Shown in pieces: positions 1,301 through 51,651 of a DNA stretch of 64,000 nt. A program made the translations under genes and the position numbers. Every line of letters begins with the position of its first letter. Position 1 is the stretch's first letter. The stretch lies in assembly GCA_000182565.2 (NCBI GenBank), contig KQ257459.1; one strand, given 5' to 3'. Source of the DNA: Spizellomyces punctatus DAOM BR117. Lineage: Eukaryota. A model generated the notes under the pieces. It saw only the letters and a program-made list of their open reading frames with translations. It was not told the DNA's origin and searched no databases.

Positions 1301-1400
1301 NNNNNNNNNNNNNNNNNNNNNNNNNNNNNNNNNNNNNNNNNNNNNNNNNNNNNNNNNNNNNNNNNNNNNNNNNNNNNNNNNNNNNNNNNNNNNNNNNNNN
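1301..1400. other. Assembly gap (100 N)
   Basis: Run of 100 N. Confidence 1.
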
Positions 1401-17415: not shown

Positions 17416-17683
17416 TATATAAACCCCCCTCTTTGCTGCCCCCCATCTTGTTCTTTACCCTCGACTCGCAAGCATCTGCCCATGCTCAAGTCTCAGTCCA
17501 TCATGAGAATGCCACTCTGGTGCCGAGGACCTCGCCCTCCCGACAACAGCAACAACATAACCCCTTGCAAACGCTGCTACTACTATATTGCTACGATTGC
17601 AGGTATATCCTTATGATTTTTCCCACGCGCATATTACCAGTCTAATTCTGACTTTACTAGTATCTGAAACATCCTCCGACTAA
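17416..17683 (+). other. Small TATA-driven spliced unit, copy 1 (possible 47-aa microprotein containing WCRGPRPPD)
   Basis: TATATAAA 17416, ATG 17482, 58-nt intron 17603-17660, TAA 17681-17683; homologous to 59711-60021. Confidence 0.45.
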
Positions 17684-18462
17684 GAATTTCGGAATCAAAG
17701 GGCTAGTAGGATTTCTCTCGTGGTGGTGGGCTTAGTTACCCGGTTGACCAACCGTAACGTTATCGCATGTGTAATTAGGCCTAGTAGTAGTTTGTTACTT
17801 GTAAGGAGTTAGTTAGCTAGTTGGCTTTTCCGAATCGGTTCTCGCCGGTTCATTCCCTGGTGTGCGAGGCACTGACATTTGTTTTTGCCAAATACACTAA
17901 TCAAATAAGTAAGAGCTATGGATGTGCTTTGGCCATCAGTAGCGAGTTTATATTTGTCACCTCCGACTCAACCAGTGTGGTTCCATCCGCATTTGGTATC
18001 TCTTGCGCGTTACCGTGTTTCTCTGAATAGCATGACGCTTGAGGGTTGAGCACAAACGTCAAGCAACCAGAAAGCAAAAGGTAGGGTACAGCAAGGATAT
18101 TTGTAAAAACAAAGACATGCACATTTAAAGAAAGCAGCAAACGTCCAATACCTCCTGCTAGTCTTTGGCATTATGGGGGGATGGAGCAAGAAGAACAAAA
18201 CCAGGGGATGAACCCAAGGAGTCAGGGAGCTTCCAAAAAAGAAAAAAAAAAAGGTTCCTACCATCGTGCGTAGAACGATCGACATGATTCATTTCGAATT
18301 GGGTCATCATACGCGGCGCGTGCTTCGCGGAAAAAAAGGCACACAAAACGTTTCTAGTTACTTTATCAAAGCTATAAAAGTACCAGTTGCAAATCATGTC
18401 ACCATCCCCCTTTAGACGACTGTAGCATACAGTAATAGATATTTTCATTTTTTACATGCAGA

Positions 18463-21783: not shown

Positions 21784-21787
21784 CATA
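21784..21787 (+). promoter_or_regulatory. Fanzor target-adjacent motif CATA at the left junction
   Basis: aaaCATA|GTGCGG; CATA is the TAM reported for SpuFz1. Confidence 0.8.
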
Positions 21788-21946
21788 GTGCGGAGCCGAT
21801 GGGTATTGGCACTAGTACAAAGATTCCAACCAATTTAATCATAATTTTACTCGATTTAGACTCATGAACTATGGTTTGATTCAAAAAATCCTATGTAAGT
21901 CATCGTCCATTTTCCCAGGCTTTCATCTTTTTCTACAGATATCATC

Positions 21947-22816
21947 ATGCCACCAAAGAAGAAGCAAAAGCTCGAAAGGCTCGAAAAACTTGACAAACCC
22001 ACCTTACATACCTGCAACAAGACGTCCTTCACAAAGGCTTTCTTGCCTAATGAGACCTACCAGCAGCGTCTTCTAGATTACATCGCCATCATCCATCAAC
22101 TCGCTGACCATGCTTCCCACGCTCTCAAATTCTACATCCTATATGCACCAACCTTTCCCACGGTAAATGAAGATACAATTGAAGCGATTCTCTATCTTCT
22201 CAACAAGGGGGAGGCTTGGCATCCAAGAAAGGAAGCAAAGAAGGCATGGCGGGATTGTTTGCTGCCATATGTTCAACGGTACTGCCACATCATCAGCTTC
22301 GTTCATCCAAATCTACAAAAAGAGCAGCAGTCAATCAATTACCTGACAGCGAGTATGATGACGAACCTGAAAGTCAACGTTCAAGAGCATTTCATGCAGA
22401 TGCTCCTTCGGTATATCAATCTGCGGCTCGATGTGAAGGGACAGAAGCAGCGACTGCCACTGAAAAGCGATGCATGGAAAGCCTTCTTTACTCGGCTACG
22501 CTACTTAAAGTCAGTTTTTCTTTTTGATATCGTGCCCGAGTCGCTGGATGACTTGACTGCTGAAGAGAGTGAGCTTCTAGAAGAGATGTGGTCCTTCATT
22601 CCCCTTTCCGACCAGCCGCTTGCATATTCGGTTGCTGTTGACCCTCTCGCTTTCTTTCCTGCTTACTGCAAACTCTCTGTGCTGTATGAACGACATGGCT
22701 TCCGTCGGTTCAGCGCAATACCTCTTCATCGGTCTCTGATTCAGTCCCATATTCGCATCGACACGGTCATCCTGTACCAGCATATCCTTTGCATCATGCG
22801 ACGGGAAGCGGAAACT
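21947..22816 (+). pseudogene. Fz1: Fanzor1 nuclease, N-terminal 290 codons (NLS-like start, REC/WED)
   Basis: MPPKKKQKLERLEKLDKPTLHTCNKTSF... closely matches SpuFz1 as recalled; cut at ...RREAET by an LTR. Confidence 0.93.
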
Positions 22817-23417
22817 TGTAACGGATTTTTTGTTGGTAGACTACGGTAAAGACAACTTGGGTCTCCTAGCAGGTTGTGTGGGTGTCCGTACTAGGAATCG
22901 TAGTCTCCAAATCCTTTCTTTGGGCGTCGGTAGCGACTTGAGGGCGAGAGGCAAGGAGAGTCGGTTAGTTGTGAACCGAGCAGGATTTAGAGGCTTCGGT
23001 ACGGGTGATCAGGCCGTTGAAGCGCTCTGTTAGGTTCCTGTTAACCTAAGATTGGAGTTGAGAAGCGAGTTATGGGGATTTTTTTGTCGCTACGGCTTCT
23101 GCCCCCGACTTATTTTATTGAATACATCCTTTTTATACAAGATTCTTGGATAAACTGTTAAACTAAACTAAACTAATGGGTGTCGCTGCACCGCAACTGA
23201 TTTATTGGTGGCGGTACCGATCTCTTCCTTTTCCGCACTGGCTCGGGCCTCCACAGGTTGTACGAGGCACGCTGAAATCTAATGCGCCAATTGCCATTCT
23301 CCGAACCGGTTTTTTCGGTCGCGGTAACCCAATCGGTGGAGTTGGTCACGCGATTCGTGCTTCCCGCGTCCGATTTGGGCTTACTCGCGATCTCTCGAAG
23401 ACGTCCTCGTCGTTACA
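22817..23417 (-). repeat. 3' LTR (LTR-A, 601 bp); polypurine tract at 23418-23427
   Basis: TG..CA ends with 6-bp inverted termini; AAAGGGGGGA precedes it on the minus strand. Confidence 0.95.
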
Positions 23418-23474
23418 TCCCCCCTTTGAAGAGCCAATGCACCGGCGCTCCGAGCGGGGGTGTTGGGACGTCAA

Positions 23475-26400
23475 TTACCAGGTCGGTACCGGATCTGTGG
23501 GGTCCGCTTCATCTGCATCTTGGTTCACGACCCAGATGATACTGGCACGGCCACCGACGTTGCAACAAAACCAGATTTGATCTGTTGCGGTACGAACGAT
23601 GGTACCCGGGGTCACGTCGGGGCCAGTTCTGGTTACGTAGAGGGCCGTAAAGGTCTCCGCGGCCCTTTTCAGGTTTGTCGCGCGGAAATGGTACTCCGCG
23701 TGCTCGTGATGTCGGGGTCTGGTGAGCCTTGCAGAGGCTTCCGCTGCGTTCGCCGTCCTTAGGAGCACCGTCCTAGCTGCTTCAATGACGGCGGACGCAA
23801 ACTCGTGGGCGTCGTCATTCGGCCAATCGGTGAACGGAGCCGTTTTTCGGCTTCCCGCCTCATGTTGGGGAACCCCGCGGTCGAGCCAAGCGGCGCACGG
23901 AGCTGGGCGCCCTCTTTTTCCGGGTTTTTTCGCGTCGGCAACTATTCCGACCGCTGCTTCACCACCATCGGTGGCCTTGCTGTAGGGGTCCGCGATGTGG
24001 TTTGTGAGGGGCTGGCCCACCGCGTAAGGTTTCGGAGCGTCGACTCCCAGCCAAAACTCATGCCCTGGAGTCTGCAGCGGCGCGTTGGGGTTGGTCCGAA
24101 GCTGATGAACCCAGGAGTGAACCCAGGTAGCGATCGCAACCCCAAGGCGATCCAGCACGCCCTCGGCCTCGAAGTCGCCCGAGTCTTCCTCCCAAGGGTA
24201 GCCGGACATGTACGTGGAGGGTACGCTCACTCCTGCTTGTCCTCTGAGATCGGTGTTCATTGTGTTAGAAATGGAAGTTTTAGTTTCGGTGTCGATAGAA
24301 GGGGTTTGCGAAGCAGAGTGAGTGTGTAAGGGAAGTAGGTCGTGGGCGGTTGAAGAAGAAAAAAGAGGGGGAGCGTGCAGGGGCGTCCTTTTAAGGTCGT
24401 CGCCGGCTGATTTTGACAGCTCGGACGCGCGTAAGCGTGATCGGGAGGCTTGGTGTGGCGTTCTCGACTGGTGAGGTAAGCCACGCGAAACTGGTTTTCT
24501 TTCTGGTGAGAGGGCGTGATTATCACGTGAGCTATCGTCCGGATAAACCGCGAAGCATTGGTGGTCGGAAGCATAAGCCGTATCTTCCGGGGCGTCGCCT
24601 GCAAGGCTGACTACCAAAGAGTCCTCTACTAGCGCGCTAGTGGGAGCTCTGGATCTCCAGTACTCTTCTAAGGCTTCGGAAGCCTCTGTTAGGGCTTCCT
24701 CTGGTTCCCAGGTATCCTCATGGGGTGGGTATCCGGACCAACGTATTCGAAATTGACGTTTTCCGCGCCTGGTTCGATGGTCTACTATCGCTTCCACTTC
24801 AAACTCGCCATCTGAAGCGTTGGAATCCTCCGCTTGTGCTTCCGCGACCTTTTCCTCAGTTTCGGCGTCGACAGGCTTCTGGTACGGACGTAATTTCGAT
24901 ATGTGAAACCATGGATGAAGTCGTCTCATCTTGTCTGGCAGTTTTAACTCGTAGTTGTCGCGGAGAGGGTTACAGTCGGTCACCGTGACTGGTCCCAGCC
25001 ATTTCGGAGCGATCTTGGACTCATACCCTGCTAGGTTTTTCGTGCTCAGAAGCACCTTATCTCCTCTCCGGAACTCCAAATGTCGTCGCGATAAATCGTA
25101 ATATCTTTTCTGCGAATCCTGGGCTTCGATCATCAGATCTCGGATAAGGATGTTTAGGTCGCCGAGGTGTTTACAGAGCTCCTCCGCATCTGCATTTCTG
25201 GTTTCTGACGGCCTTTCGACGATGTCCGCCAGTGGATTGTGGGGCTCATAGCCTAGGTCCATTCTGAATCGCGTCATTTTTGTCGCCTCGTGTACCGTAT
25301 CGTTGATAATGAATTCCGCAACCGGAAGAAAGGTGTCCCAGTCGTCTAATCGGGTGTTGACCATTGTGGTAAGGACCTGCAAGACCGTTGCGTTGTCTCT
25401 TTCTGATTGTCCATCACCTTGAGGGTGGTAGGCTGTGGTGAGCTCTTGATTAATCTTTAGGTTTTTGCAGACCTCCTGCCAAAATCGACTCGTAAATTTG
25501 GAGTCGCGGTCCGAGATAATGGTCTCCGGGATGCCGTGCAATGGGACGTAGCGCTCTATAAAGAGTTCCGCGACCTGAATAGCTGTCGCAGTGCTCTTGA
25601 GGGGCCATACGTGGATCCTCTTTGAGCATTTACATGCTATTAACCAAAAGGCGTCGTACCCTCTGGAAGTAAGTGGGAGCTTGGTTACGAAGTCAGTCGT
25701 GATGACTGTCCAGCGTCCCGGAGCTGGTGGTATGGGTTTCAGCAACCCCGGAATCAGTTGCGGTACCCTTTTTGAGCGTTGACAGGTTTCACATCCTGCG
25801 CAGTGTTTTCTGAAATCTTGTGCCATTTTCGGCCACCAGACTTGCGCTGCAGCTCTAGCGTAGGTTCTTTCGAATCCGAAGTGTCCTCCCCCCTCGTGAA
25901 AAAGCTTGCGCACCTCAGGGGTGCAAGCAGGGGGCACGTAAAGGCGCCAAAGGTCTTCGGAGACTGAAAAACGGTGCCACAGCAGGTTATCTGCACGTTG
26001 CCAGTCCTGAAGAAAGCGCGTGTCGGCGGTAGTGTACGTGTCGGGGCTGGTCTCCCATAGGAGCGTGCGGGCCTGTTGGGCTATGGGGTGGAGCTGGCCG
26101 GTGAGGCCAGCGCGGATGGCGGCAATGAGTGCAGGCTGTAAGGCCAGACGAAAGACGGCATCTGCCAGTGTCGAGGAAGGTGCGAGAGCAGCTGGTGTGG
26201 TGCGCAGCCATCGTCTTCCGCGTTTCGACACCCATATTTGGGTCGCGGTGGAGCAGAGTAGGGTTTCCGCTCCTAGTAGCCGTGAAAGTGTATCAGCGAC
26301 AATGTGAAAACGTCCTGGTTTGTGAACGATTGTCATCCATTCGGACCAGTAACTAAGATCGAGGGCCCAGCGGAGAAGCTTACGGTTCTCGCCTTTGTAT

Positions 26401-29400
26401 TTAGCGAGCCACAAAAGAGCTCGGTGATCAGTAATGACCGTGAAAGGCAGGCCTTCGAGGTATGGGCGGAGTTTTCCGAGGCCCCAAATGAGGCATCCGG
26501 CCTCGAGTTCGACGGGGGGGGCCTTCTTTTCCGAGGTGGTGGTGCCTCGGGAATGGTAGCACAGCGGGCGTTTAGAAGCATCCGGCTGTAACTGTTCGAG
26601 CGTGACATTAAACGCTGTGTAGGAAGCGTCACTGTGAAGGGTGTAGGGGAACCCTTTTCTGGGTGCCGCGAGCACTGGAGCTGTTGTCAGAGCCTGCTTG
26701 GCGGCTGCGAAGGCAGAGTTTCGGGAATCGGTCCATGAAACTTCACGCTTCGCGATAAATCTGCGCAGACCTTGGTCGGGGCGCTTGCGAGCAAGGCGTC
26801 CGACACAAAAGGGGTCAATGGGTAAGTCCGCCAGCGATGATTGGCGTAGATTGACCGCCGGTAGGTCTGAGGAGCTAGATTTCGGATGTTGCGAAACCTC
26901 AAATTGGGCTCCGGTGGCTGTGATTGTAGGGGCCACCGCCGTGTCGAGCATGGATGGTGAATTGAGCTTTTCAGCGCCTTTCTTCGGGTCAGCGCGACCC
27001 TTTTTAAGGTCTCGGTATTCGCGAACGCCCTCTTGGATAGCGTCTTGCAGGGGTCGGACGAGTTCCGCGTAGCGAGAAATGAATTGGGCGTAGAACCCTA
27101 GGAGACCCACGAATGACCATAGGTCACCTATGAATTTGGGTTGTGGCCAATCGACTATGGTTGCGACCTTGTCTGGATCGGTAGCGAGACCCTGAGAGGA
27201 GGCAACGAAACCGAGGGCCGTGAGCTGGTGAAAGAGCCATTGACACTTGTCGAGTCTTAGGGTGAGTTTGGCTCTGGAAAAGCGGTCGAGCCAGTCCGCG
27301 ATGGCGTCTAGGGCTTCCGCGGCTGTCTCCGCTCGTGTGTGGATATCGTCGACGAAGTTGTTGATATTTCGCCATTTGGAGGGACCCAAGGTGTCGTCCA
27401 TCACCCGACAGAAGTGCGAGGGGGCAGTCTTGGGTCCGAAGGGCATAAAGAGTGGTTCGTAGATGCCGTCATGGAGTCTGAGCGCGAGCCATTTGCGTAC
27501 CGACGCATCGGTGATGGCGATTTGGTAGAATCCTTTGTTTGCGTCACCTCCCGATATGTATCGGAATGGGACTGCGACGATCCAGTTCAGGATGTCGAGC
27601 ATGATGGGAAAGGGATATGGATCCCAGGCCATGCAGTCGTTGGCTCGGCGATAGTCGAAGGCTACGCGCGGGGGTTTGTCTGCATAGCGAATGATAACAG
27701 GATCGCTGGCGAAGGTTACTTCGGTGGTTCGTTTCCACCTCTGAAGCCCCATCATGGTGTCTCGCTCCGTCTCGAGGGCTGTCCGCTCCAACGGAGAGTA
27801 CGACCGTGGCCTCGAAAGGGGTGGCGGAGCCGAGATAAATCGAGGCGCATAAGGAATCTTGGTGTAGTTCCCTATGAGATGACCCTCATAGCTGAAGGCT
27901 TGATGGAAGTGTCGTAGAATGTTGATTAGGGCCCAGACCACGGGTTTGGGTCGCTTGAGATCGACGTGGAAACGTTCCGCGTCTTTTAATTGGGCTTCGA
28001 AGGCCCCTGGAGCCCTCTCCGTAGAGTCGAGGTTCCATTTGTTCCGAAGTGTCTGCCATTCTTCTTTGGAAATGTTCTCTTCGGGGTCCGCAACCGAATT
28101 ATGGGTCGCGGTGGACAGTTTGAGGCCTAACGGGACCGTTGAGCTAGCAGCGGTGGCCTCAAGAGGGTTTTCGATGAGAAAAGTTTGGGCTGCCACGCGC
28201 GTCTGTCCCGTGATTAACATGGTTAATCTAGACTTCTGAGCTTTGGCTTTGGTCAGCCGTGGCATTGACACATCCTTCATGAATTCACCCTGCTTGGTCT
28301 TGTATGGCGTGCCGCGCATGTGATCGGTGTCCAGCTCATCCGTTATGGAGCAGGGGATAAGGATGTCTGGATTCTTGAGCGTCACCGCGAAACTGGGTAA
28401 CGGGGGTTCCTGAACCAAGGTTTGGAGTTTCAAATGTCCCAAAACGTCGTTGGCTAGGATGATGAGAGGTTTCCCGTACGCGATGACCCGAAAGTAGGCG
28501 CGGAAAGTCAGGTATTCTCCGCCGCGGCCTCTGAGGGAAGTTTCGAGGCATACTGTCTTGGTAGATGAGATACGTCCACCAATGCCGTTGAAAGCCATCG
28601 TTTCCGCATCCTGCAAATCGGTTTCGGAGAACAGAAGGCCTTGGTACGTGTCGGAAATCAGAGACTCGCAGGCCCCTGTGTCTAGTACCACAGGTGCCCA
28701 GAGCTGCGCGATGACGGCTAGCGTCCAGCAAGGCTGCGTTTGGGTCTTAGTCTGGCTTTTGAGTACATCGCCTAAATCTACTGAGTAGAAGGCGTTGATA
28801 GAAGGCACCGCGATCTCGAAATGGGGCGCGATGTCGTTAATTGTTGCTTCCGTAGCCTTGATCACACTCTCAAAGTGTTCTCTAGTTTTGTCGTTTTGTG
28901 GTTTTGTTGTTTTATTCTGGCGAGCAACTTGTTCGATAGCCAGCATGACTATACGCGTCCGTTCGCTCTCTTCGTGTCTTTGGAGACGTGGATGGTCTTT
29001 AACGTGCCGAAATTTGGGGTTTCCGCGACGATAATAATAGTCTGAGCGAACGATATTGCCTGTCAGGAGAAATGCCACCAGTTGCAGGTTGGCGTACGCA
29101 TCAAAGATAACAGGATCTTCAGAGCTCCACATCAAGAATTTCTCGCGCTCGTCGAGCTTTATCCAGGCAAGGAGAATCAAACGAGGGGTACCGTCTTCTC
29201 GGACCTTTCGCAGGATTCGATCCTTGTCAGCTTCGGCTGCGGCAGCGATGTAGAGGTGGTGGGAACTCCACGCGACTGCGTAGGGGTCGTTCCCGAGGTG
29301 CCCGGCGCCTCGCTTCGGTTCTTTGGCGAAGAAGCTGAGCGCGCGGGGGTTGTTGCCCATCATCAGAGCCACTTGCGGGGTGCCCCAGATGATGGCTATG

Positions 29401-30953
29401 TTGTCCCAGACTCGGTCCCAGCCCTGCGTGGGCGTGCGGGGGTCCTCTTCCTTGGTCACCGTGACCTTGGAAAGAGGTGCGGTCATCAAAATTGTTGATT
29501 CCGAGTGCTTGGGTGAATGAAAGAACCCGATGGTGTGGAATCCTTGATTAGCGGCTTCCGTTCTTTCCAGTTCCGAAGCCGAAAAAAGAGTCTCGGTGGT
29601 AGCGGACGTCGAGTCCAGCTCCACTATGTACGCCTTCTTCGATTCCTGTTTGGGTTTCCAACCTGAGGGCATGGGTGCTCCATATGGTCCTTTCTTTCCA
29701 TCTTCAGGATCTTTTCGGTTCGGGTTCTGCCAGCAGAAAACATTCCAATGCTTTTTCTGACAGAATTTGCAGGGTGCCGGTGGTTCCTTGTTGGGGTCCG
29801 GAACCATCTTCTGAGGACCATCGCGACCCTTTTCGGGGTTTCCGGTTTTATGCGGAGCCGTCTGCTTAGGGCCTTTGTCGGTTCCGGTCTTTTGTGACTT
29901 CTTCTGAGCTTCTGCAGCACCGCTGTAGCAAGGGTCTCGTTTTCTGGTGTCATCAGAGCCGAAATAAAGGCGCAGGAAGTCTTTTAATTTGGTCAGGTTC
30001 GTGACGTTACAGGATTTGACCATGATTTGGATGTCGCTGGGCAATTGTTCGACTATTAGGTCGAAATGCTGGTCAGCGGGACATTCTATGTTTGCCCGGT
30101 CGCCATAAGCGAGGCGCCGGAGATGAGTTTTGTGGTCGATGAACGCGAGAAAGCTGCGAAATTCTTTGGGGTTCGCATGGCAGCGCACATATTCGGTTTT
30201 GCGCTTGGACTCGGTTAGGGGATCTCGGAACTCTCGAAGCAGTTCCTCTTTCCACCTTTTCCAGGTCCATGAGCGAGTTTCCTGGGCTTCCAGAGTGTAA
30301 AACCAAGCGTCAGCAGGGGTTTTCTCGGCTATCATGGCTGGTAGGAGCTGTACCATCCTGGCATCCGACGTTGCGCTAACGTTTTGAAGAAGTTGGACTT
30401 TGTTAAGCCATTCTTCAACGTCTTGGTTTCTTCTGCCCGTAAACTCGGGTACGTCCTTTGCTTTCAAGGAATCGACCTTGGTGTCGCTGGCCCACGGGGC
30501 CGCTGGCACTTGGATTGGAGGCACCGCACCTGAAAAACTTGGTTCGGTACGCTCCCTTGGTGTGTCCGCCGTTTCCCACGGGGTTGCGGACCGTTCTCTT
30601 GTAGCTCGTGCTATGGGAGGTTGTTCAGGCAGCGGGCGATGTGCTAGGGCTTCTAAGGCTCGTGCGAGGCGCTCATCCGCCGCTGTCTGACGTTCGGAAA
30701 GCCTATGAAGCTGTTCCGTAAGGTTTTGAGTTGCCAACTGCGTTGCAGCAGTCGAGCGGGCAATGTCTTCTTTTAACGCTGCCACTTCAGAGGCCATCGT
30801 GGCCAAGTTAGGGGCTTCCGGTTCGACGGAAGTGGTCCCTGAACGCCTTGGGCGTGTTGCGGGAGGGACTTCGACGTCCTCCGCAGGACCCTGACTACGA
30901 GTCTGGATCACAGGTGAGCGGCCTCGCGTTGGTGAGCGTTCGACCGGCATCAT
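23475..30953 (-). CDS. Gag-Pol polyprotein (gag, Zn knuckle, PR, RT, RNase H, IN, chromodomain, extra domains)
   Basis: Uninterrupted ORF; CKFCQKKHWNVFC, LDTGA, FVDD, SDAS, GGHFG..CETC, TTDFVTKLP, SDRDSKF, FEVEAIVDHR..RWSGYPPHEDTWEPEEAL; first ATG 30953. Confidence 0.95.
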   Translation of the reverse strand: MMPVERSPTRGRSPVIQTRSQGPAEDVEVPPATRPRRSGTTSVEPEAPNLATMASEVAALKEDIARSTAATQLATQNLTEQLHRLSERQTAADERLARALEALAHRPLPEQPPIARATRERSATPWETADTPRERTEPSFSGAVPPIQVPAAPWASDTKVDSLKAKDVPEFTGRRNQDVEEWLNKVQLLQNVSATSDARMVQLLPAMIAEKTPADAWFYTLEAQETRSWTWKRWKEELLREFRDPLTESKRKTEYVRCHANPKEFRSFLAFIDHKTHLRRLAYGDRANIECPADQHFDLIVEQLPSDIQIMVKSCNVTNLTKLKDFLRLYFGSDDTRKRDPCYSGAAEAQKKSQKTGTDKGPKQTAPHKTGNPEKGRDGPQKMVPDPNKEPPAPCKFCQKKHWNVFCWQNPNRKDPEDGKKGPYGAPMPSGWKPKQESKKAYIVELDSTSATTETLFSASELERTEAANQGFHTIGFFHSPKHSESTILMTAPLSKVTVTKEEDPRTPTQGWDRVWDNIAIIWGTPQVALMMGNNPRALSFFAKEPKRGAGHLGNDPYAVAWSSHHLYIAAAAEADKDRILRKVREDGTPRLILLAWIKLDEREKFLMWSSEDPVIFDAYANLQLVAFLLTGNIVRSDYYYRRGNPKFRHVKDHPRLQRHEESERTRIVMLAIEQVARQNKTTKPQNDKTREHFESVIKATEATINDIAPHFEIAVPSINAFYSVDLGDVLKSQTKTQTQPCWTLAVIAQLWAPVVLDTGACESLISDTYQGLLFSETDLQDAETMAFNGIGGRISSTKTVCLETSLRGRGGEYLTFRAYFRVIAYGKPLIILANDVLGHLKLQTLVQEPPLPSFAVTLKNPDILIPCSITDELDTDHMRGTPYKTKQGEFMKDVSMPRLTKAKAQKSRLTMLITGQTRVAAQTFLIENPLEATAASSTVPLGLKLSTATHNSVADPEENISKEEWQTLRNKWNLDSTERAPGAFEAQLKDAERFHVDLKRPKPVVWALINILRHFHQAFSYEGHLIGNYTKIPYAPRFISAPPPLSRPRSYSPLERTALETERDTMMGLQRWKRTTEVTFASDPVIIRYADKPPRVAFDYRRANDCMAWDPYPFPIMLDILNWIVAVPFRYISGGDANKGFYQIAITDASVRKWLALRLHDGIYEPLFMPFGPKTAPSHFCRVMDDTLGPSKWRNINNFVDDIHTRAETAAEALDAIADWLDRFSRAKLTLRLDKCQWLFHQLTALGFVASSQGLATDPDKVATIVDWPQPKFIGDLWSFVGLLGFYAQFISRYAELVRPLQDAIQEGVREYRDLKKGRADPKKGAEKLNSPSMLDTAVAPTITATGAQFEVSQHPKSSSSDLPAVNLRQSSLADLPIDPFCVGRLARKRPDQGLRRFIAKREVSWTDSRNSAFAAAKQALTTAPVLAAPRKGFPYTLHSDASYTAFNVTLEQLQPDASKRPLCYHSRGTTTSEKKAPPVELEAGCLIWGLGKLRPYLEGLPFTVITDHRALLWLAKYKGENRKLLRWALDLSYWSEWMTIVHKPGRFHIVADTLSRLLGAETLLCSTATQIWVSKRGRRWLRTTPAALAPSSTLADAVFRLALQPALIAAIRAGLTGQLHPIAQQARTLLWETSPDTYTTADTRFLQDWQRADNLLWHRFSVSEDLWRLYVPPACTPEVRKLFHEGGGHFGFERTYARAAAQVWWPKMAQDFRKHCAGCETCQRSKRVPQLIPGLLKPIPPAPGRWTVITTDFVTKLPLTSRGYDAFWLIACKCSKRIHVWPLKSTATAIQVAELFIERYVPLHGIPETIISDRDSKFTSRFWQEVCKNLKINQELTTAYHPQGDGQSERDNATVLQVLTTMVNTRLDDWDTFLPVAEFIINDTVHEATKMTRFRMDLGYEPHNPLADIVERPSETRNADAEELCKHLGDLNILIRDLMIEAQDSQKRYYDLSRRHLEFRRGDKVLLSTKNLAGYESKIAPKWLGPVTVTDCNPLRDNYELKLPDKMRRLHPWFHISKLRPYQKPVDAETEEKVAEAQAEDSNASDGEFEVEAIVDHRTRRGKRQFRIRWSGYPPHEDTWEPEEALTEASEALEEYWRSRAPTSALVEDSLVVSLAGDAPEDTAYASDHQCFAVYPDDSSRDNHALSPERKPVSRGLPHQSRTPHQASRSRLRASELSKSAGDDLKRTPLHAPPLFSSSTAHDLLPLHTHSASQTPSIDTETKTSISNTMNTDLRGQAGVSVPSTYMSGYPWEEDSGDFEAEGVLDRLGVAIATWVHSWVHQLRTNPNAPLQTPGHEFWLGVDAPKPYAVGQPLTNHIADPYSKATDGGEAAVGIVADAKKPGKRGRPAPCAAWLDRGVPQHEAGSRKTAPFTDWPNDDAHEFASAVIEAARTVLLRTANAAEASARLTRPRHHEHAEYHFRATNLKRAAETFTALYVTRTGPDVTPGTIVRTATDQIWFCCNVGGRASIIWVVNQDADEADPTDPVPTW

Positions 30954-31097
30954 TCTCGGTTTCGTGAAGTTCTGTCTCCGAAACGAGAGAAAAGGTTTCC
31001 GAGTAGCTACCTGAGCGGATCTCGGTTTGCGCAAGAGTTTCGGTACGACCGAATAAGGTTTTCAGCTGAATTTGAGAGGGGAAGGCGGTTCGTCGCG

Positions 31098-31108
31098 CTT
31101 CTCCACCA
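31098..31108 (-). promoter_or_regulatory. Primer-binding site TGGTGGAGAAG (tRNA-Ala-like); second copy at 32357-32367
   Basis: Directly abuts the LTR; complementary to a tRNA 3' end ...TCTCCACCA. Confidence 0.75.
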
Positions 31109-31708
31109 TGTAACGGATTTTTTGTTGGTAGACTACAGTAAAGACAACTTGGGTCTCCTAGCAGGTTGTGTGGGTGTCCGTACTAGGAATCGTAGTCTCC
31201 AAATCCTTTCTTTGGGCGTCGGTAGCGACTTGGGGGCGAGAGGCAAGGAGAGTCGGTTAGTTGTGAACCGAGCAGGATTTAGAGGCTTCGGTACGGGTGA
31301 TCAGGCCGTTGAAGCGCTCTGTTAGGTTCCTGTTAACCTAAGATTGGAGTTGAGAAGCGAGTTATGGGGATTTTGTGTCGCTACGGCTTCTGCCCCCGAC
31401 TTATTTTATTGAATACATCCTTTTTATACAAGATTCTTGGATAAACTGTTAAACTAAACTAAACTAATGGGTGTCGCTGCACCGCAACTGATTTATTGGT
31501 GGCGGTACCGATCTCTTCCTTTTCCGCACTGGCTCGGGCCTCCACAGGTTGTACGAGGCACGCTGAAATCTAATGCGCCAATTGCCATTCTCCGAACCGG
31601 TTTTTTCGGTCGCGGTAACCCAATCGGTGGAGTTGGTCACGCGATTCGTGCTTCCCGCGTCCGATTTGGGCTTACTCGCGATCTCTCGAAGACGTCCTCG
31701 TCGTTACA
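31109..31708 (-). repeat. Internal LTR (LTR-B, 600 bp)
   Basis: Near-identical to LTR-A, with three private differences seen by eye. Confidence 0.95.
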
Positions 31709-31985
31709 GATATCTGTTCTTGATGGTGATCTTGTTCAGAGCCCTGTAGTCCACACACATCCTCAAAGACCCTTCTTTCTTCTTGACAAAGAGGATGGGT
31801 GCTCCAAATGGGCTCTTGGATGGTCTGATGTGGCCTGCCTCCAGAAGTTCTGAAAGCTGCTTCCTCAGTTCTTCTAACTCCAAAGAAGAGAGGTGGTAGG
31901 TTGGTCTCCAGGGGGTCTGGTTGGGGTCACTGAGTTCAATTCTGTGATCTACTGATCTCTCAGGGGGAAGTCCTGGGGGAATGTG
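31709..31985 (-). pseudogene. RT N-terminal fragment of a different Ty3/Gypsy element
   Basis: [70 protein letters not shown], truncated by LTR-B. Confidence 0.9.
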
Positions 31986-32182
31986 ACAGAATTCTTCTGT
32001 CAGTGCTATGGTTATACTGGTTAGATGTGGTTCCAAACTAGTGGTCACATGACTTTGCTGATGGTGTCAGCATTCATTTGACCAGAATTAGATAAATAAG
32101 CAGATTTAGCCATTTCTGGCTAAATTAGATGAGTATCCTGACACACTGGCATCTGCCCCTTTCAATCAAGTGGCACAGTGTA

Positions 32183-32318
32183 TTTAGGATGACTTGTCTC
32201 ACTTGTGATTGGCTATAAATGGTGCAATAGGCTGACAAATAGTTTAGGATGACATGTACAAGATCTGATTGGTTGCAAATGGTGCAATAGGCTGACAAAT
32301 AGTTTAGGATGACATGTA
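32183..32318. repeat. 60-bp tandem repeat, about 2.3 copies
   Basis: TTTAGGATGAC at 32183, 32243 and 32303; AAATGGTGCAATAGGCTGACAAATAG twice. Confidence 0.9.
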
Positions 32319-32367
32319 TGAGTTCTGAATTTGAGAGGGGAAGGCGGTTCGTCGCGCTTCTCCACCA

Positions 32368-32967
32368 TGTAACGGATTTTTTGTTGGTAGACTACGGTAA
32401 AGACAACTTGGGTCTCCTAGCAGGTTGTGTGGGTGTCCGTACTAGGAATCGTAGTCTCCAAATCCTTTCTTTGGGCGTCGGTAGCGACTTGAGGGCGAGA
32501 GGCAAGGAGAGTCGGTTAGTTGTGAACCGAGCAGGATTTAGAGGCTTCGGTACGGGTGATCAGGCCGTTGAAGCGCTCTGTTAGGTTCCTGTTAACCTAA
32601 GATTGGAGTTGAGAAGCGAGTTATGGGGATTTTTTTGTCGCTACGGCTTCTGCCCCCGACTTATTTTATTGAATACATCCTTTTTATACAAGATTCTTGG
32701 ATAAACTGTTAAACTAAACTAAACTAATGGGTGTCGCTGCACCGCAACTGATTTATTGGTGGCGGTACCGATCTCTTCCTTTTCCGCACTGGCTCGGGCC
32801 TCCACAGGTTGTACGAGGCACGCTGAAATCTAATGCGCCAATTGCCATTCTCCGAACCGGTTTTTTCGGTCGCGGTAACCCAATCGTGGAGTTGGTCACG
32901 CGATTCGTGCTTCCCGCGTCCGATTTGGGCTTACTCGCGATCTCTCGAAGACGTCCTCGTCGTTACA
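32368..32967 (-). repeat. 5' LTR (LTR-C, 600 bp)
   Basis: Matches LTR-A except for one missing G near 32886; followed on the minus strand by the PBS and leader (32325-32367 = 31066-31108). Confidence 0.95.
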
Positions 32968-32970
32968 ACT

Positions 32971-33989
32971 GTTGAAAGGTCGACTTATGGTTGCGCATCT
33001 GTAATCTGCGGAACAAGGCTTTTAGATCTCGTTGTGGAATGTGTTTTGAAGGCTCGATCACGACAGACGGTACCTTGGTGTCAGTTTACTTGAAACATCC
33101 TGAAGCTGACAAGTATGGAAAGTGCAGCGGCGGAGGGAAAAAGTCAGCAAACACAACGGAGGCAGAGGTTAAAGCGCAATATGTGGAGAAAAACTTACCT
33201 GCTTGTCGAGTAGCAGAGAATGTTGTTGTTATCGACCCAAACAAGCGCGACATTCTCTACTGCCAAGACAACAGTGGTATGACATTTTGCTACACCGCCA
33301 ACCAGCGAGCCGTGGAGACTGGAAGCCGTCGATTTGCAAAAGAACGGCAGCAGATGAAGAAGGAAGCGGGAATGGACCTCATAGAATCACGTATCCCTAG
33401 TCACAAGACAATGAACCTCATGGACTTCATGCGCTATCTCCTTGTTCGGTGCGCTGATTGGGATCGTCGCAAGGAATTCTACTCCCACCCTGCCCACACG
33501 CGATGGAAATGGCACTCCTTCATCAATCGGCAGTGAAGCGAATCAGACCTCATATCCAACATGCGCAACAAGTTTGGGAACTTTACCGTTGTGATGGGTG
33601 ATTGGAGCGACGCTGGTCGAACTGCGAGATTTCAGACCTCATCAAAGACAAAAGGCTGGCGCACCCTCTTTAAGCGGAACAGGATCAACTGCTTCCTTCT
33701 CGACGAGTACAAGACCTCATCTGTCTGCCCTCACTGTTCCTCTGGCGTTGAAAAAGGCTTCAAAACACGACCTCATTCAAGACCTTGGCGCCGTCGCGAA
33801 GGCAAGATTGAAAAAGTCCACGGATTGCTGGGTTGTACCAACCCTAACTGTTTACAGCAATCCTGGACGATGCGCTACTGGAACAGGGACACGCTGAGCA
33901 CCTGCAACATGCTGATGATTGTGCAATCAATGTTGGATGGGCACTGTAGACCAGAAGTGTTCAGCAGGAGTGTTCCAGCCGTAGCTTAG
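32971..33989 (+). pseudogene. Fz1: Fanzor1 nuclease, C-terminal part (RuvC I/II/III and Zn finger)
   Basis: VVVIDPNKRD, MGDWS, LLDEYKTSSVCPHC, GCTNPNC, WNRDTLSTCNM; 1-nt frameshift near 32976 and in-frame TGA at 33534-33536. Confidence 0.93.
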
Positions 33990-34003
33990 ATTGGTTAGAT
34001 TAG

Positions 34004-34093
34004 GTTTTCCGAGCCGGTTGTCGCGCGGTTCAATCCCTGGTGCGGGTGCTAGTGCCAATACCCATCGGCTCCGCACTAATCATTTATTCTGTC
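34004..34093 (+). ncRNA. Fanzor omega-RNA: scaffold 34004-34078 plus flank-derived guide from 34079
   Basis: GTTTTCCGAGCCGGTTGTCGCGCGGTTCAATCCCTGGTGCGGGTGCTAGTGCCAATACCCATCGGCTCCGCACTA; GAGCCGGT pairs with ATCGGCTC; overlaps the right TIR; 3' end approximate. Confidence 0.88.
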
Positions 34094-34526
34094 ACTAGTA
34101 TAAAAATATTCACACATTTTATTTTTTTACATGAGCCTTCTCTGTTAACATGCGCGGCAACTAAGCTCACATGTCCAAAGTGTAGATGTAAGCAGTTGTA
34201 GTCATAACTCGTAATCAGCGGCCGCGATCTTTGCCGCAGAAAATGTCACATTTGGGTTTTCCCACCCCCCCAAAAATTCCCACACCGTCAATAATAAGGA
34301 AAACTCTAAAGTTATTTTTAGCTTTTTTTTTAAAGTGATGTTGGGATATTGTTGAGTCTTTGCAGGAATCATCTTAAGAACCCTAATGGGCTTGAAAGAG
34401 TTCGATGGCATGAGTAAAGGGTGAACGATAAACAACCAAAAAACGAACAACAACAACAACAACAACAACAAGGACATAGAGTTGAAAAAACAGACCCTTG
34501 ACAAGGCACCCTCACACTCTAAAACC

Positions 34527-43420: not shown

Positions 43421-46400
43421 ATGCGCATCTTGTCATTGATTCCCATCTTGCTCTTGACGACGACGCAGGACTTTGGTCATGCCGCCCCCATGGTAGAAAC
43501 ATCCCTCGCTCCAGGTAAACCGTTAGGATTTGGAATGATTACATTGTCGATCAAATCTGTAACACGCGTCGTTTTTTTAATGAATAGAGGGGACACCGAC
43601 TGGCGGTGCGAGCGGCATTGAGGTCTTGTCGACTCCACAATCATCATCTCCTGTCGCTTCTCAAAAGCCAAAAAAGTGTCGTAGAAAAAAGAACAAGCAC
43701 TCGCAAGTGCCAACACCTACTACGACATCCAGCATCGAGATTAGTGTAGCTACACCCACGGGAAACAATTTCATTAATGAACCACAGGGTACTCCTCAGG
43801 GTATGCCTCAGGGTGCACATCAGGGTAACCCTACCGATCCAAACCCGATTATCACACCCGATCGCTCCGATGAGACGCGTTTGCCCATCCAAATCATTCA
43901 GACGGGTGTCCCCATCCCGATGCCCGTCATTGAGCCCTCAAAGCCCGTAGAGACGGGCATGCCCAGAGACAATGGAATACCCACAGAGACTCCCAGAGAG
44001 CGAGAAGAAGAGATGCCTGTCCAGATCTCGACCATTCCCTTCCCTACCGGCATGCCAAACGAAAACAATGGTAACCGCGGGAATAACAACATGCCCCACG
44101 AGAACAACGGTAATCGCGGGAATAACAACATGCCCCACGAGAACAACGGTAATCGCGGGAATAACGGAAACAACAACAACATGCCACACGGGAATAACGG
44201 TAATGGCGGAAACAACGGAAACAACAACAACATGCCACACGAGAATAACGGTAATGGCGGAAACAACGGAAACAACAACAACATGCCACACGAGAATAAC
44301 GGTAATGGCGGAAACAACGGAAACAACAACAACATGCCACACGAGAATAACGGTAATGGCGGAAACAACGGAAACAACAACATTGTCACCACCACCGTCC
44401 TCGAAACTGTCATTCAAACCATCACCGATTCCGCCGCATGCACAACCACCACCATCAACAATGGCGGAAACAACAACAATGGCGGTTCTCAATCCACCAC
44501 CACTGTCCTCGAAACTGTTGTCGTCACTCGATCGGATTCTGCGGCGTGCACGACGACTTTACCCACGCCCACGCCCACGCCAGGTGGAAACAATGGCGGA
44601 AATAACGGTGGTTACAACAATAACAACGGCAACAATGGCAATAACGGTGGTTACAACAATAACAACGGCAACAATGGCAATAACGGTGGTTACAACAATA
44701 ACAACGGTAACAAGGGCAATAACGGTAACAACGGAAACAATGGAAACAAGAACGAAAGTAGAAACACCCCCACCCCAACGCCCACTCCAACACGTACCTC
44801 TGAAAAGGGTTCCAATCTGGTCAAAAAACGACCGCTGCACCCACGCCGACACCTACCCCCGGAAAAGGACTTCAACCCGGTGACAACAAAAACGACGGTG
44901 GTGCTGCCAAGGACAACAAGAACAACGGCGGAGCTGCCAAGGACAACAAGAACAACGGTGGGGCTGCCAAAGACAACAAGAACAACGGCGGTAACAACGG
45001 AGGAGCTGCCAAGGACAACAAGAACAACGGCGGCAACAACGGAGGAGCTGCCAAGGACAACAAGAACAATGGCGGTAACAACGGAGGAGCTGCCAAGGAC
45101 AACAAGAACAATGGCGGTAACAATGGAGGAGCTGCCAAGGACAACAAGAACAACGGCGGTAACAATGGAGGAGCTGCCAAGGACAACAAGAACAACGGCG
45201 GTAACAATGGAGGAGCTGCCAAGGACAACAAGAACAACGGAGGAGCTGCCAAGGACAACAACAACAACGGTGGGGCCGCGAAAGACAACAAGAACAACGG
45301 CGGTAACAATGGCGGTGCTGCCAAGGACAACAAGAACAACGGTGGTGCTGCCAAGGACAACAAAAACAATGGCGGTAACAATGGCGGTGCTGCCAAGGAC
45401 AACGGCGGAGCCGCAAAAGACAACAAGAACAATGGCGGTAATAACGGGCGGAGCCGCCAAGGGAGGAGACAACAAGAACGTCTCCCCCGGTGCGGCCAAA
45501 TTCTGCCAAACTTTGGCAACCTCCCCATCGGTGACGGCACCCAAATTCGCACCGGCTTCTGCTCCCAGACCGCCCAAGGTGCCATCCCCTCTGCCAACAA
45601 ATGGTCTCGACCGTCATTGTCCAACCTGAAAACGAGGCCACAATCCCCATCGGTCAAGACTTTAAAGTCCAGATCAATGTAGCTAATCTCCAAACCGGCT
45701 TCTTTTCTGACCCCCAAACCCTCTACTACGCCCTCCCCCAACAACTCAACGCCCAGGGTATCATCCAAGGCCATCAACACATTACCATCCAACGCATCGC
45801 AGCCAACGCCAACGACAACCTCGCGGCCCCCGACGCCCAAATCTTCCAGTTCTTCAAAGGTCTCAATGATCCCGCCGATGGATCTGGCAATATGGAGACA
45901 ACCGTCCCTGGAACGTCATTCACAACCTCTGGACCCGGGGTCTACCGTATTTGTTCCATGTCGGGATCGTTTTCGCATCAGCCGCTTGTGATGCCCGTTG
46001 CTCAGCGTGGAGCCCAGGATGATTGTATTCGGGTCAATGTTGTTGCGCAAGGGAATAAGCAGGCTGGTAACAAGCAAGCTGACAATAAGCAAGCCGACAA
46101 CAAGCAGGCGGATAACAAGCAAGCTGACAATAAGCAAGCTGACAATAAGCAGGCGGATAACAAGCAAGCTGATAATAAGCAAGCGGGCAACAAGCAAGCT
46201 GACAACAAGCAGGCGGATAACAAGCAAGCTGATAATAAGCAAGCGGGCAACAAGCAAGCCGACAACAAGCAGGCGGATAACAAGCAAGCTGATAATAAGC
46301 AAGCGGGCAACAAGCAAGCTGACAACAAGCAAGCTGACAACAAGCAAGCGGATAACAAGGAAGCTGACAATAAGCAAGCTGACAATAAGCAGGCGGATAA

Positions 46401-46683
46401 CAAGCAAGCTGACAATAAGCAGGCGGATAACAAGCAAGCGGATAACAAGCAAGCTGACAACAAGCAAGCGGATAACAAGCAAGCGGATAACAAGCAAGCT
46501 GATAATAAGCAAGCCGATAACAAGCAGGGCGACAATAAGCAAGCTGACAATAAGCAGGCGAACAACAAGCAAGCGGACAACAAGCAAGCTGACAAGAAGC
46601 AAGTGGACAACAGGAACAACCGTGGCAACAATGGCAATGCAGGCAATGCCAACCGTAACCGAATGACCCGTCGGTTCCACTAG
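43421..46683 (+). CDS. Large secreted protein: N/G-rich repeats, conserved fungal domain, (DNKQA)n tail; three apparent frameshifts
   Basis: Signal MRILSLIPILLL; one intron; domain ..YYALPQQLN..GHQHITIQ..FFKGLND..YRICSMSGSFSHQPLVMPVAQRGAQDDC; frame slips near 44815, 45446 and 45512. Confidence 0.8.
46051..46605 (+). repeat. 15-bp coding tandem repeat (DNKQA, about 37 copies)
   Basis: GAYAAYAAGCARGCN units. Confidence 0.95.
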
Positions 46684-46976
46684 TCCAGCCACATAGATAG
46701 CTGCATACAAGTTTTTTCGAGAAAGTATATATAGACCTATTTTGAATCAACAGTTTTTTGTAGATAGGGTAGGTACATAGAAGAAGGGAGAGGGATTGTA
46801 AGATGACATGTCCATTTTTTGTTTCTTGTGGGTTTTTCATTGTAAAGTTGAAAATAGAGAAAAGTTTTGAAAACAGAGTTTTGGCATTTGCAGTTCACGT
46901 AAAACTACCAAGCGCGTCCTTGGTTTTTGACGCGTCCAAATCTCTCTCGCCTCTCAACCAACTGGCCATTCCGACC

Positions 46977-49748: not shown

Positions 49749-51651
49749 ATGACACCCCCAACCCTCCCAATAAACCCAACATCCCTCTCCCCGCACAAGT
49801 TCCTAGCCCCCTCACAAACCCTCAGCACCTCCCTTCTAAAAACAACATGCGCACTCTACTCCCTTGCCCATCAATCCCAACCTATCCAAATGACGCATTT
49901 GGACAAGGTTTGGGTGGATGGGTTTGATGCGGAGCAGATTTGGGAGCAGATTTGGATGCTTGTTGGGCCTTTTGGGGAGTATTTTGGGGATAAAGTTCAG
50001 GAGATTTTGGAGAATGCGGAGGGGGATGCGGAGGAGAGTGATGTGCATGTGGAGGAATTGGAGGAGGATGAAGAGGAGGATGTGAGTGAGCATGATGAGG
50101 ACGAGGATGTGGATAACGAGGATGAGGAAGAAGAGGAAGGCGAGGAACAAGATGAGGAATTGGAGGAAAACGATAACGAGGACATGTTGAGCGGTTCAGA
50201 CCCACTCGATGACGACCAGGTCTCAAACGCTTCCAACCCCTCCGACTCACCACGGAAACGCAAAAGCATCATTGATGACGAATTCTTTTCCCTTGAAGAC
50301 ATGGAGCGATTCGCCGACTTTGGTGAGGCGCGTGATATGAAACGTGCACGGCGGAACCAAGAGGATCTAGAAGAAGATGATGATGAGTTTGCATTGGAGG
50401 ATGAGTTGAATGAGGAGGATGAGAATGCGAATGGTATGAAAAAATATTTAGAGTGTATATCAACGGGGTGGGTGACATTTTCTGTTATTATTTGCAGAGA
50501 TTCGGTATGAGGATTTCTTTGGACCGCGTGAACAGCATCATGAGCGGCCTGATGCACGTGTACGGTTCTCGGATCAGAACCAAGTCAAGGAATTCCAAAG
50601 GGAGGATGAGAATCAGGAGGAACAAGACCAGGAGGATGAGGACCAAGGGGAAGAAAACCCGACAGTACACCCTTCCCGAACCGCCAACCTGTTTGATGAA
50701 GACACCCAGCCGGATACGACCATCTCCACCTTTGAAAGAGAGCAAAAAAAACTTGCGGCCCAAATCACCCAGCTCGAGTCTGAAGCCATCGCCCCCAAAC
50801 CATGGACCCTCAATGGAGAAGCCTTTAGCAAATCCCGTCCAGTCAATTCCCTCCTCGAAGAAGATTTAGAATACGAGCACGCCGCCAAACCCGTTCCCGT
50901 CATAACAGAAGAAAAAACATCGTCGTTGGAGGATTTGATCAAGCAGCGGATCAAGGATGCTGTGTTTGATGATGTAGTTCGCAAGGCGCCACCTCGGGAT
51001 AGAGATTTTGATCCCAATAGACGTATCGAGATTATAGAAGAAAAGAGCAGCAAGGGGCTTGCAGAGGTCTACGAGGAAGACTATATGCGAAAAACAGGAC
51101 AAACAACCACAACAGAAAAAGACGCCGCCCTCGCCGCCCAACACGCTGAAATCGATACCCTCTTCAAATCCCTTTGTCAGAATCTTGATGCCCTTTCCAA
51201 CTGGCATTTCCAGCCCAAACCCACTACCGTCGAACTGCAAGTCACACCCCTCCCCAACGCTCCTGCTTTGCAAATGGAGGATATCACGCCTTCTCATGTA
51301 GCCGATTCTGCACTCGTAGCACCCTCGGAGGTATTCGCACCCCCCAAGGACCTCAAAGGCGACAAGGAACTCTCATCCGGCACCAAGAAACGTCTTCGAG
51401 ACAAAACGAGGAAACAAGCTGGAAAAGCCCGCAAAGAGAAACAAGATCGTCTTCAGGCTATTGTGGCTGCTAAACCCCGTACAGCCTTCGCAGAGCGCAA
51501 AGAAAAGGAGTCGGCGTTGAAGAAATTGATGGGACAAAAGAATGTGACTGTAGTTGGTAAAGTCGATAAAGGGGCCAAGGCGAGGGGTGTGGAAAAGGGG
51601 GGAAAAATTGGGGAAAGAAAAGTGGAGAGAGCAGAATTTTTGAGGTTGTAA
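49749..51651 (+). CDS. MPP10: U3 snoRNP protein Mpp10
   Basis: DGFDAEQIWEQI, acidic tract, DDEFFSLEDME, KPWTLNGE..RPVNSLLEEDLEYE, LDALSNWHFQPK. Confidence 0.93.

What the first reader, a model, noticed from the sequence alone, without database searches (positions are those of the whole stretch)
21784..34093. Eukaryotic RNA-guided nuclease system (Fanzor1/OMEGA) hidden by a 10-kb nested insertion
Seen: 30-bp perfect inverted ends including TA, 12.3 kb apart. Removing 22817-32970 joins ...RREAET|VE... into a roughly 630-codon frame with an NLS-like PPKKKQK start, RuvC-I (IDPN), RuvC-II (DEYKTS), Zn finger (CPHC/CTNPNC) and RuvC-III (NRD). There is no transposase. Known: this is the architecture of TnpB-derived Fanzor1, a programmable RNA-guided DNA endonuclease, and the protein closely resembles SpuFz1 as I recall it. 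Inference: protein, guide RNA and TAM are all readable from this one locus. The family is described, but this copy would be missed by ORF callers and implies intact siblings elsewhere in the genome.
Basis: partly seen in the sequence, partly recalled or inferred. Interest (0 to 1): 0.95.

Follow-up and report, generated by a model that had tools for sequence, protein, structure and literature searches.

The report
Broken SpuFz1 Fanzor copy, already described
This is a dead copy of the well-studied Fanzor1 RNA-guided nuclease transposon (SPu-1/SpuFz1) of the chytrid fungus Spizellomyces punctatus, split by a retrotransposon, and this kind of locus in this genome is already in print.

Summary
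Two perfect 30-nt inverted ends (21786-21815, 34049-34078) enclose one Fanzor1 gene in three collinear pieces. These match the solved SpuFz1 structure at E 6e-161, 2e-103 and 4e-90, with 87% identity overall. The gene is broken by a 10,151-bp Ty3/gypsy composite (22817-32967), a 1-nt frameshift beside the insertion and a TGA at 33534. Active-site, TAM-contact and zinc-finger residues are all kept. The 75-nt omega-RNA scaffold (34004-34078) matches 14 of 14 nucleotides named in the published structure. CA+TA at the left end gives the published CATA TAM.

It is not new. A flanking Mpp10 exon is 100% identical to S. punctatus DAOM BR117, the genome where Fanzor was discovered (Bao & Jurka 2013) and characterised (Saito et al. 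2023). Saito et al. list 42 Fz loci there (19 full-length), 134 ORF-less 'ghost' loci, and 11 loci carrying extra genes, including Gypsy/Ty3 inserted in the Fz gene. Intact siblings are annotated.

Verdict: real feature, interpretation supported, novelty nil, low interest. The window also holds a ghost element (59469-60175, minus strand) and a ghost remnant near 17.8 kb.

The parts
21784..21787 (+). CATA: conserved CA plus the TA that opens the left inverted end. It equals the published SpuFz1 TAM.
   Evidence: Sequence. Saito 2023 passages report CA upstream of the 5' IR and a 5'-CATA TAM.
21786..21815 (+). Left 30-nt inverted end (33 nt, to 21818, with one mismatch)
21947..22816 (+). Fanzor1 codons 1-290, equal to SpuFz1 residues 1-296 (WED/REC part, includes 5 of the 6 TAM-contact residues)
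   Evidence: E 5.7e-161 to 8gkh
22814..22816 (+). ACT, left copy of the apparent target-site duplication of the retroelement (right copy 32968-32970)
   Evidence: Sibling contigs read straight through this point with one ACT (loose end at 32975).
22817..32967 (-). Ty3/gypsy chromovirus composite with three LTRs, 10,151 bp
22817..23417 (-). LTR-A (3' LTR, 601 bp, TG..CA), preceded on the element strand by a purine tract
23478..31061 (-). Open 2528-codon gag-pol frame: RT, RNase H, integrase (zinc-binding and core domains), SH3, chromodomain
31109..31708 (-). LTR-B (600 bp), followed on the element strand by a tRNA-type primer site (TGGTGGAG...)
31709..32367 (-). 659-bp spacer. It holds 43 nt identical to the leader after LTR-B, about 2.4 copies of a 60-bp tandem repeat, and a roughly 95-codon piece weakly like the start of a reverse transcriptase.
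   Evidence: RVT_1 E 0.022, below cut-off
32368..32967 (-). LTR-C (outermost 5' LTR, 600 bp), one indel different from LTR-A
32971..32975 (+). GTTGA: remains of the two codons VE (SpuFz1 297-298), one A short, so the frame shifts
   Evidence: A sibling contig has an extra A behind 32974 (table 4).
32976..33533 (+). Fanzor1 middle piece, equal to SpuFz1 299-482 (includes RuvC-I D383/N385 at 33234/33240 and Y345)
   Evidence: E 2.1e-103
33534..33536 (+). In-frame TGA at the position of SpuFz1 K483. Contigs of sibling copies read C at 33534.
   Evidence: table 3
33537..33989 (+). Fanzor1 C-terminal piece, equal to SpuFz1 484-638 (RuvC-II E541, four zinc-finger Cys, RuvC-III D606), plus stop TAG
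   Evidence: E 3.5e-90
34004..34078 (+). 75-nt omega-RNA scaffold: stem 1, 6-nt linker, stem 2 with an 8-nt loop. Its 3' part is the right inverted end.
   Evidence: 14 of 14 named nucleotides; fold
34049..34078 (+). Right 30-nt inverted end
34079..34093 (+). Predicted 15-nt guide (flank read into the omega-RNA)
   Evidence: Sequence. The 14-15-nt length comes from Saito 2023. Inferred, not shown for this locus.

Best explanation
This is one copy of the SPu-1 transposon of Spizellomyces punctatus DAOM BR117. SPu-1 is a 2.1-kb non-autonomous DNA element with 30-nt inverted ends. It carries the Fanzor1 nuclease gene (SpuFz1 family) and, at its right end, the omega-RNA.

In working copies the protein binds the 75-nt scaffold plus 14-15 nt transcribed from the right flank. 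It recognises 5'-CATA and cuts double-stranded DNA matching the guide (shown by others for sibling copies).

Here the protein gene is dead. A Ty3/gypsy chromovirus composite landed in antisense orientation after codon 290. One A is missing just after the insertion point. A sense codon has become TGA. The inverted ends, the CA/TA motif and the omega-RNA scaffold are untouched.

The predicted empty site reads CATA followed by the guide sequence, which is the TnpB-like logic of an element aiming at its own vacant site. That step is inferred. Inferred too: the copy could still be moved in trans and could still supply a guide RNA to sibling proteins, as ghost loci do.
For: Identity of the gene. The pieces match PDB 8gkh (SpuFz1) at E 5.7e-161, 2.1e-103 and 3.5e-90. 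They map to residues 1-296, 299-482 and 484-638 of the 638-aa paralog P0008, with 543 of 624 aligned positions identical. All 23 of 23 residues that Saito 2023 names in the passages I read are kept. These comprise 4 active-site, 6 TAM-contact and 13 nucleic-acid contacts. All 4 zinc-finger Cys are kept as well.

One element, not two. The gaps are exactly 2 and 1 residues. ACT lies on both sides of the insertion. The 30-nt ends are perfect.

Omega-RNA. 14 of 14 named nucleotides match at offset 0, against at most 8 of 14 at 40 other offsets. The fold gives two stems, a 6-nt linker and an 8-nt loop, as the paper's text describes.

Organism. The Mpp10 exon is 100% identical to DAOM BR117, and the next best hit is 93%. 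11 of the 21 relatives found are DAOM BR117 proteins at 81-89% identity.

Retroelement. The Pfam order is RT, RNase H, integrase, chromodomain. The outer LTRs differ by 1 position in 601.

Siblings without the insertion. Contigs of public runs read through the insertion point, carry the extra A, and read C at 33534.

Literature. Saito 2023 passages and Bao & Jurka 2013 passages.
Against: No contig listed bridges the LTR/Fanzor junction, so the insertion rests on the assembly and the ACT duplication alone.

A 3-bp duplication is short for a Ty3/gypsy element. My recollection is that 4-6 bp is usual.

The fold of the scaffold is only modestly better than shuffles (z -1.82; 6 of 200 shuffles fold as well).

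Local Pfam, NCBIfam and Rfam give no relevant hit. The profile search found no bacterial TnpB, so the TnpB link rests on the literature.

Expression of this locus was not tested.
Confidence: 0.95

Rival explanations
1. The two halves come from two different SPu-1 copies that were brought together by recombination between retroelements, so the joined frame is a chimera.
For: Three LTRs, with the middle one differing at 4-5 positions from the outer two, show that the retroelement region has a complex history. The best-matching annotated paralog differs between pieces, although those gene models are of uneven length.
Against: The pieces abut at exactly consecutive positions of every full-length paralog (296|299). 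ACT is duplicated on both sides. The two 30-nt ends are identical. Two independent insertions at the same nucleotide are very unlikely.
Confidence: 0.02
2. The nested structure, or part of it such as the third LTR and the 659-bp spacer, is an assembly artefact of a repeat-rich region.
For: The assembly has gaps (100 N at 1301-1400). No listed contig of four public runs bridges the junctions.
Against: There is no N in or near the element. The ACT duplication and clean TG..CA LTR ends fit a real integration. Saito 2023 reports Gypsy/Ty3 inside Fz genes in this genome.
Confidence: 0.03
3. The locus still makes a working nuclease, with the retroelement spliced out and the TGA read through.
For: All catalytic and contact residues are intact.
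Against: The insert ends ...ACA, not AG. Exact removal still leaves a 1-nt frameshift. A TGA follows 186 codons later.
Confidence: 0.01

Closest known systems
SpuFz1 / SPu-1 element of Spizellomyces punctatus DAOM BR117 (Bao & Jurka 2013, PMC3627910; Saito et al. 2023, PMC10432273; PDB 8gkh)
   Same: Same genome. 87% protein identity. Same 30-nt inverted ends with CA upstream. About 2.14 kb once the insert is removed. Same omega-RNA scaffold (14 of 14 named nucleotides) and the same CATA motif.
   Different: The protein gene is broken in three ways. The N-terminal part is nearer to other paralogs (89%) than to SpuFz1 itself (83%).
Fz loci with Gypsy/Ty3 inserted 'in the Fz gene' (Saito et al. 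2023, text on Extended Data Fig. 3a; among 11 loci with further genes inside the IRs)
   Same: Exactly this class: a Ty3/gypsy element inside an SPu-1 Fz gene in DAOM BR117.
   Different: I could not see Supplementary Data 1-2 (supplements closed), so I cannot say that this very locus is on their list.
Ghost Spu-1 elements (Saito et al. 2023)
   Same: Intact inverted ends and omega-RNA without a working protein gene. A real ghost lies in this window at 59469-60175.
   Different: Ghosts are short (about 550 nt in the paper, 707 bp here) and have a distinct IR and stem 2 variant. This locus keeps the canonical IR and the canonical 8-nt loop.
Bacterial TnpB / IS200-IS605 omega systems
   Same: RuvC D-E-D plus zinc finger. 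Guide RNA at the right end reading into the flank. The TAM sits at the left end, so TAM plus right flank equals the empty site.
   Different: No TnpA. Inverted ends with TA. A larger REC region. No sequence-level hit to TnpB was obtained here, so the relation is taken from the literature.

Membership tests
Fanzor1 (SPu-1/SpuFz1 family) | Significant sequence match to experimentally characterised Fanzor1 proteins | tested here: met
   Pieces against PDB 8gkh: E 5.7e-161, 2.1e-103, 3.5e-90. PpFz1 and GtFz1 are also hit. The family profile hits all three solved Fanzor1 proteins.
Fanzor1 (SPu-1/SpuFz1 family) | RuvC catalytic D-E-D (D383, E541, D606, with N385) | tested here: met
   4 of 4 kept
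Fanzor1 (SPu-1/SpuFz1 family) | Bao & Jurka motif D-X(125,275)-[TS][TS]-X-X-C4 zinc finger-X(5,50)-RD | tested here: met
   IDPN ... KTSSVCPHC ... CTNPNC ... NRD. 4 of 4 Cys kept. The motif is read across the TGA break.
Fanzor1 (SPu-1/SpuFz1 family) | Uninterrupted reading frame (a working gene) | tested here: not met
   10,151-bp insertion, 1-nt frameshift and TGA. It is a pseudogene member.
Fanzor1 (SPu-1/SpuFz1 family) | 30-nt inverted ends with CA upstream of the left one | tested here: met
   Definition from Saito 2023.
Fanzor1 (SPu-1/SpuFz1 family) | 75-nt omega-RNA scaffold spanning the right inverted end | tested here: met
   14 of 14 named nucleotides; fold
Fanzor1 (SPu-1/SpuFz1 family) | RNA-guided, TAM-dependent DNA cleavage | not testable with these tools
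   Shown by others for the sibling SpuFz1
TnpB superfamily | Profile-level sequence match to bacterial TnpB / OrfB_Zn_ribbon | tested here: inconclusive
   No TnpB among 4 PDB hits at E up to 1. No Pfam or NCBIfam hit even for SpuFz1 itself.
Ty3/gypsy chromovirus (the insert) | Domain order RT, RNase H, integrase, with a C-terminal chromodomain | tested here: met
Ty3/gypsy chromovirus (the insert) | LTRs with TG..CA ends, primer site after the 5' LTR, purine tract before the 3' LTR | tested here: met
   (sequence reading; the criteria are recalled)
Ty3/gypsy chromovirus (the insert) | Target-site duplication of 4-6 bp (figure recalled) | tested here: inconclusive
   Only ACT (3 bp) is duplicated, or 4 bp if the LTR's last A is counted

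The most novel reading that the evidence does not exclude
The dead copy is a ghost locus in the making. Its intact ends and canonical omega-RNA may still be transcribed and loaded by sibling Fanzor proteins, aiming them at CATA plus this locus's own flank. If so, ORF-less guide donors would arise by decay of full copies.

Separately, the three-LTR retroelement may transpose as one unit. Its outer LTRs are near-identical while the inner one differs, which is what reverse transcription of a read-through transcript would give.
Probability: 0.3. Interest if true: 0.3.

Novelty: already known. Interest (0 to 1): 0.08.

Why it matters
It matters little beyond annotation. The system, its RNA, its TAM and its structure were worked out from sibling copies in this very genome. 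Loci with Ty3/gypsy inside the Fz gene are already mentioned in print.

The locus is a clean example of how a copy dies while its ends and guide RNA stay intact. It also shows the empty-site logic (CATA plus right flank) at a single locus. It offers no new editor, because intact siblings with 81-89% identity are annotated.

Tried and rejected
Pfam on the three pieces gave only chance-level hits. Pfam on SpuFz1 itself gave none and NCBIfam none of relevance, so these libraries cannot test membership.

Rfam at gathering score gave no family in the window.

The genome search on the window's own genome was not possible, as none is held.

Sequencing runs: no RNA holder was listed. Reads laid: all four runs are contigs. 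The right flank 34096-34400 had no cover. No listed contig bridges 32967/32968. The locus itself was therefore neither confirmed nor contradicted, and expression was not addressed.

I first read the ghost element at 59469-60175 on the plus strand, and the alignment and fold were poor. blastn showed that its omega-RNA end lies on the minus strand, which I then confirmed.

Searching the papers' main text for omega-RNA sequence motifs found none. I used the nucleotides named in the structure text instead.

The spacer's RT-like piece has no match to the element's own pol at E below 0.5 and only a sub-threshold RVT_1 hit. Its origin is unresolved.

Supplementary Data 1-2 of Saito 2023 (the locus lists) could not be read.

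Full report
**Observation**

The repeat finder gives one long inverted pair in the region. Its arms are 21786-21818 and 34046-34078, 33 nt, 97% complementary. The first 30 nt, starting with TA, are perfect. A 28-nt core occurs exactly twice in the 64-kb window at up to 3 mismatches, and 0 times in 100 shuffles.

Inside the pair, direct-repeat families mark three LTR copies at 22817-23417, 31109-31708 and 32368-32967.
- 21947-22816 starts MPPKKKQK and ends RREAET.
- 32976-33533 and 33537-33986 are separated by TGA. They carry IDPN, DEYKTS, CPHC, CTNPNC and NRD.

ACT stands on both sides of the insert. After the right ACT only GTTGA (5 nt) precedes the frame of the next piece, so one nucleotide is missing.

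**What it is**

Each piece matches the solved Spizellomyces punctatus Fanzor1 chain (PDB 8gkh). The E-values are 5.7e-161 (N piece), 2.1e-103 (middle) and 3.5e-90 (C piece). Parasitella Fanzor1 is a weaker hit for all three pieces, and Guillardia Fanzor1 for the N and middle pieces.

A word-indexed search with the N piece, restricted to longer proteins, found 21 relatives at E up to 1e-5:
- 11 are S. punctatus DAOM BR117 proteins (81-89% identical).
- 4 are from Fimicolochytrium jonesii.
- 6 are unnamed.

P0008 (638 aa) is SpuFz1 by its numbering: all 23 residues named in the passages of Saito et al. 2023 that I read have the stated residue type at the stated position. The window pieces map to P0008 residues 1-296, 299-482 and 484-638, with 543 of 624 aligned positions identical. 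All 23 named residues are kept, as are the 4 zinc-finger cysteines. The 23 comprise:
- 4 active-site residues: D383, N385, E541, D606.
- 6 TAM contacts: R96, Q129, Q130, N133, R291, Y345.
- 13 other nucleic-acid contacts.

The missing residues 297-298 are VE in SpuFz1, matching the GTTGA remnant. Residue 483 is the TGA. A 12-sequence profile of the family hits the three solved Fanzor1 proteins and no bacterial TnpB. Local Pfam and NCBIfam give no hit even for SpuFz1, so they say nothing either way.

**Omega-RNA and TAM**

The paper's text puts a 75-nt scaffold at the right inverted end, followed by a 14-15-nt guide. If the scaffold is 34004-34078, then 14 of 14 nucleotides named in the structure description match: C7, U16-G20, G22, A29, C32, C34, U35, G37, A72 and A75. 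The best of 40 other offsets matches 8 of 14.

The fold gives stem 1, a 6-nt linker and stem 2 with an 8-nt loop. This is the canonical form according to the paper. The energy is only modestly better than shuffles (z -1.82).

CA at 21784-85 plus the TA of the inverted end gives CATA, the published TAM. The predicted empty site is therefore CATA followed by the 15 nt at 34079-34093, which is the guide. This is the TnpB-like self-targeting logic, and for this locus it is inferred, not shown.

**The insert**

The minus strand holds an open 2528-codon frame with RT, RNase H, integrase and chromodomain, so it is a Ty3/gypsy chromovirus. The LTRs end TG..CA. A TGGTGGAG... primer site follows LTR-B and LTR-C, and a purine tract precedes LTR-A.

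The outer LTRs (A and C) differ at 1 of 601 positions, so the insertion is recent. The inner LTR-B differs from them at 4-5 positions.

The 659-bp spacer between C and B holds three things:
- 43 nt identical to the leader after LTR-B.
- About 2.4 copies of a 60-bp repeat.
- A piece of about 95 codons weakly like the start of an RT (RVT_1 E 0.022, below cut-off), unlike the element's own pol.

I cannot explain the origin of this arrangement. A read-through transcript reverse-transcribed as a unit would explain why A and C are near-identical while B differs.

**Organism and prior knowledge**

An Mpp10 exon at 50476-51648 is 100% identical to the DAOM BR117 protein. The next best hit is 93%, from Spizellomyces sp. 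'palustris'.

Bao & Jurka 2013 (passages) described SPu-1 in this genome. It is about 2,100 bp, has 33-bp TIRs and putative TA duplications, and has 17 full-length copies. Without the insert and one ACT, the present element is 2,139 bp.

Saito et al. 2023 (passages) report the following for this genome:
- 42 Fz loci, of which 19 are full-length.
- 134 ghost loci.
- 30-nt IRs with CA upstream.

Their locus lists are in supplements that I could not open.

**Public reads**

Contigs of four coded runs were laid on 32800-34400. They show sibling copies that read through the insertion point, carry an extra A behind 32974, and read C at 33534. They do not bridge this locus's junctions.

**Verdict**

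It is nevertheless an already described element in the genome where it was discovered. Interest is low.

Noticed in passing
window 59469-60175 (minus strand): A ghost Spu-1 element, 707 bp. Its inverted ends differ from the Fz-locus IR at 6 and 9 of 30 positions. Its omega-RNA scaffold is the reverse complement of 59469-59543 (76% identical to the canonical scaffold; fold z -3.79, with 0 of 200 shuffles as good). CA+TA lies on its 5' side (plus-strand TATG at 60174-60177). Stem 2 differs from the canonical one by paired changes.
   Followed up: partly
window 17824-17898 (plus strand), with a further short match at 17518-17543: A degenerate omega-RNA-like scaffold (77-79% identical over 53-57 nt) ending ...ACACTA. 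It is probably the remnant of another ghost element. Its left end was not found.
   Followed up: partly
window 22817-32967: Three-LTR arrangement. The outer LTRs differ at 1 of 601 positions, and the inner LTR differs at 4-5. The 659-bp spacer holds a leader duplicate, 60-bp tandem repeats and a weak foreign RT-like piece. Origin unexplained.
   Followed up: partly
window 23478-31061 (minus strand): The retroelement frame is very long (2528 codons). About 1,100 codons before RT and about 390 after the chromodomain have no Pfam hit at E up to 0.01.
   Followed up: no
window 43584-46750: Dense coding-type tandem repeats (periods 30-102, rich in AAC/GGN codons, so Asn/Gly-rich), with open frames on both strands and strong AT skew. 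No Pfam hit for the 681-codon frame.
   Followed up: no
window 32975-34078 versus contigs of runs X1 and X9: Differences between this copy and sibling copies are mostly transitions: 21 of 24 places in X1 and 23 of 28 in X9 (table 1).
   Followed up: no
window 1301-1400: A 100-N assembly gap.
   Followed up: no
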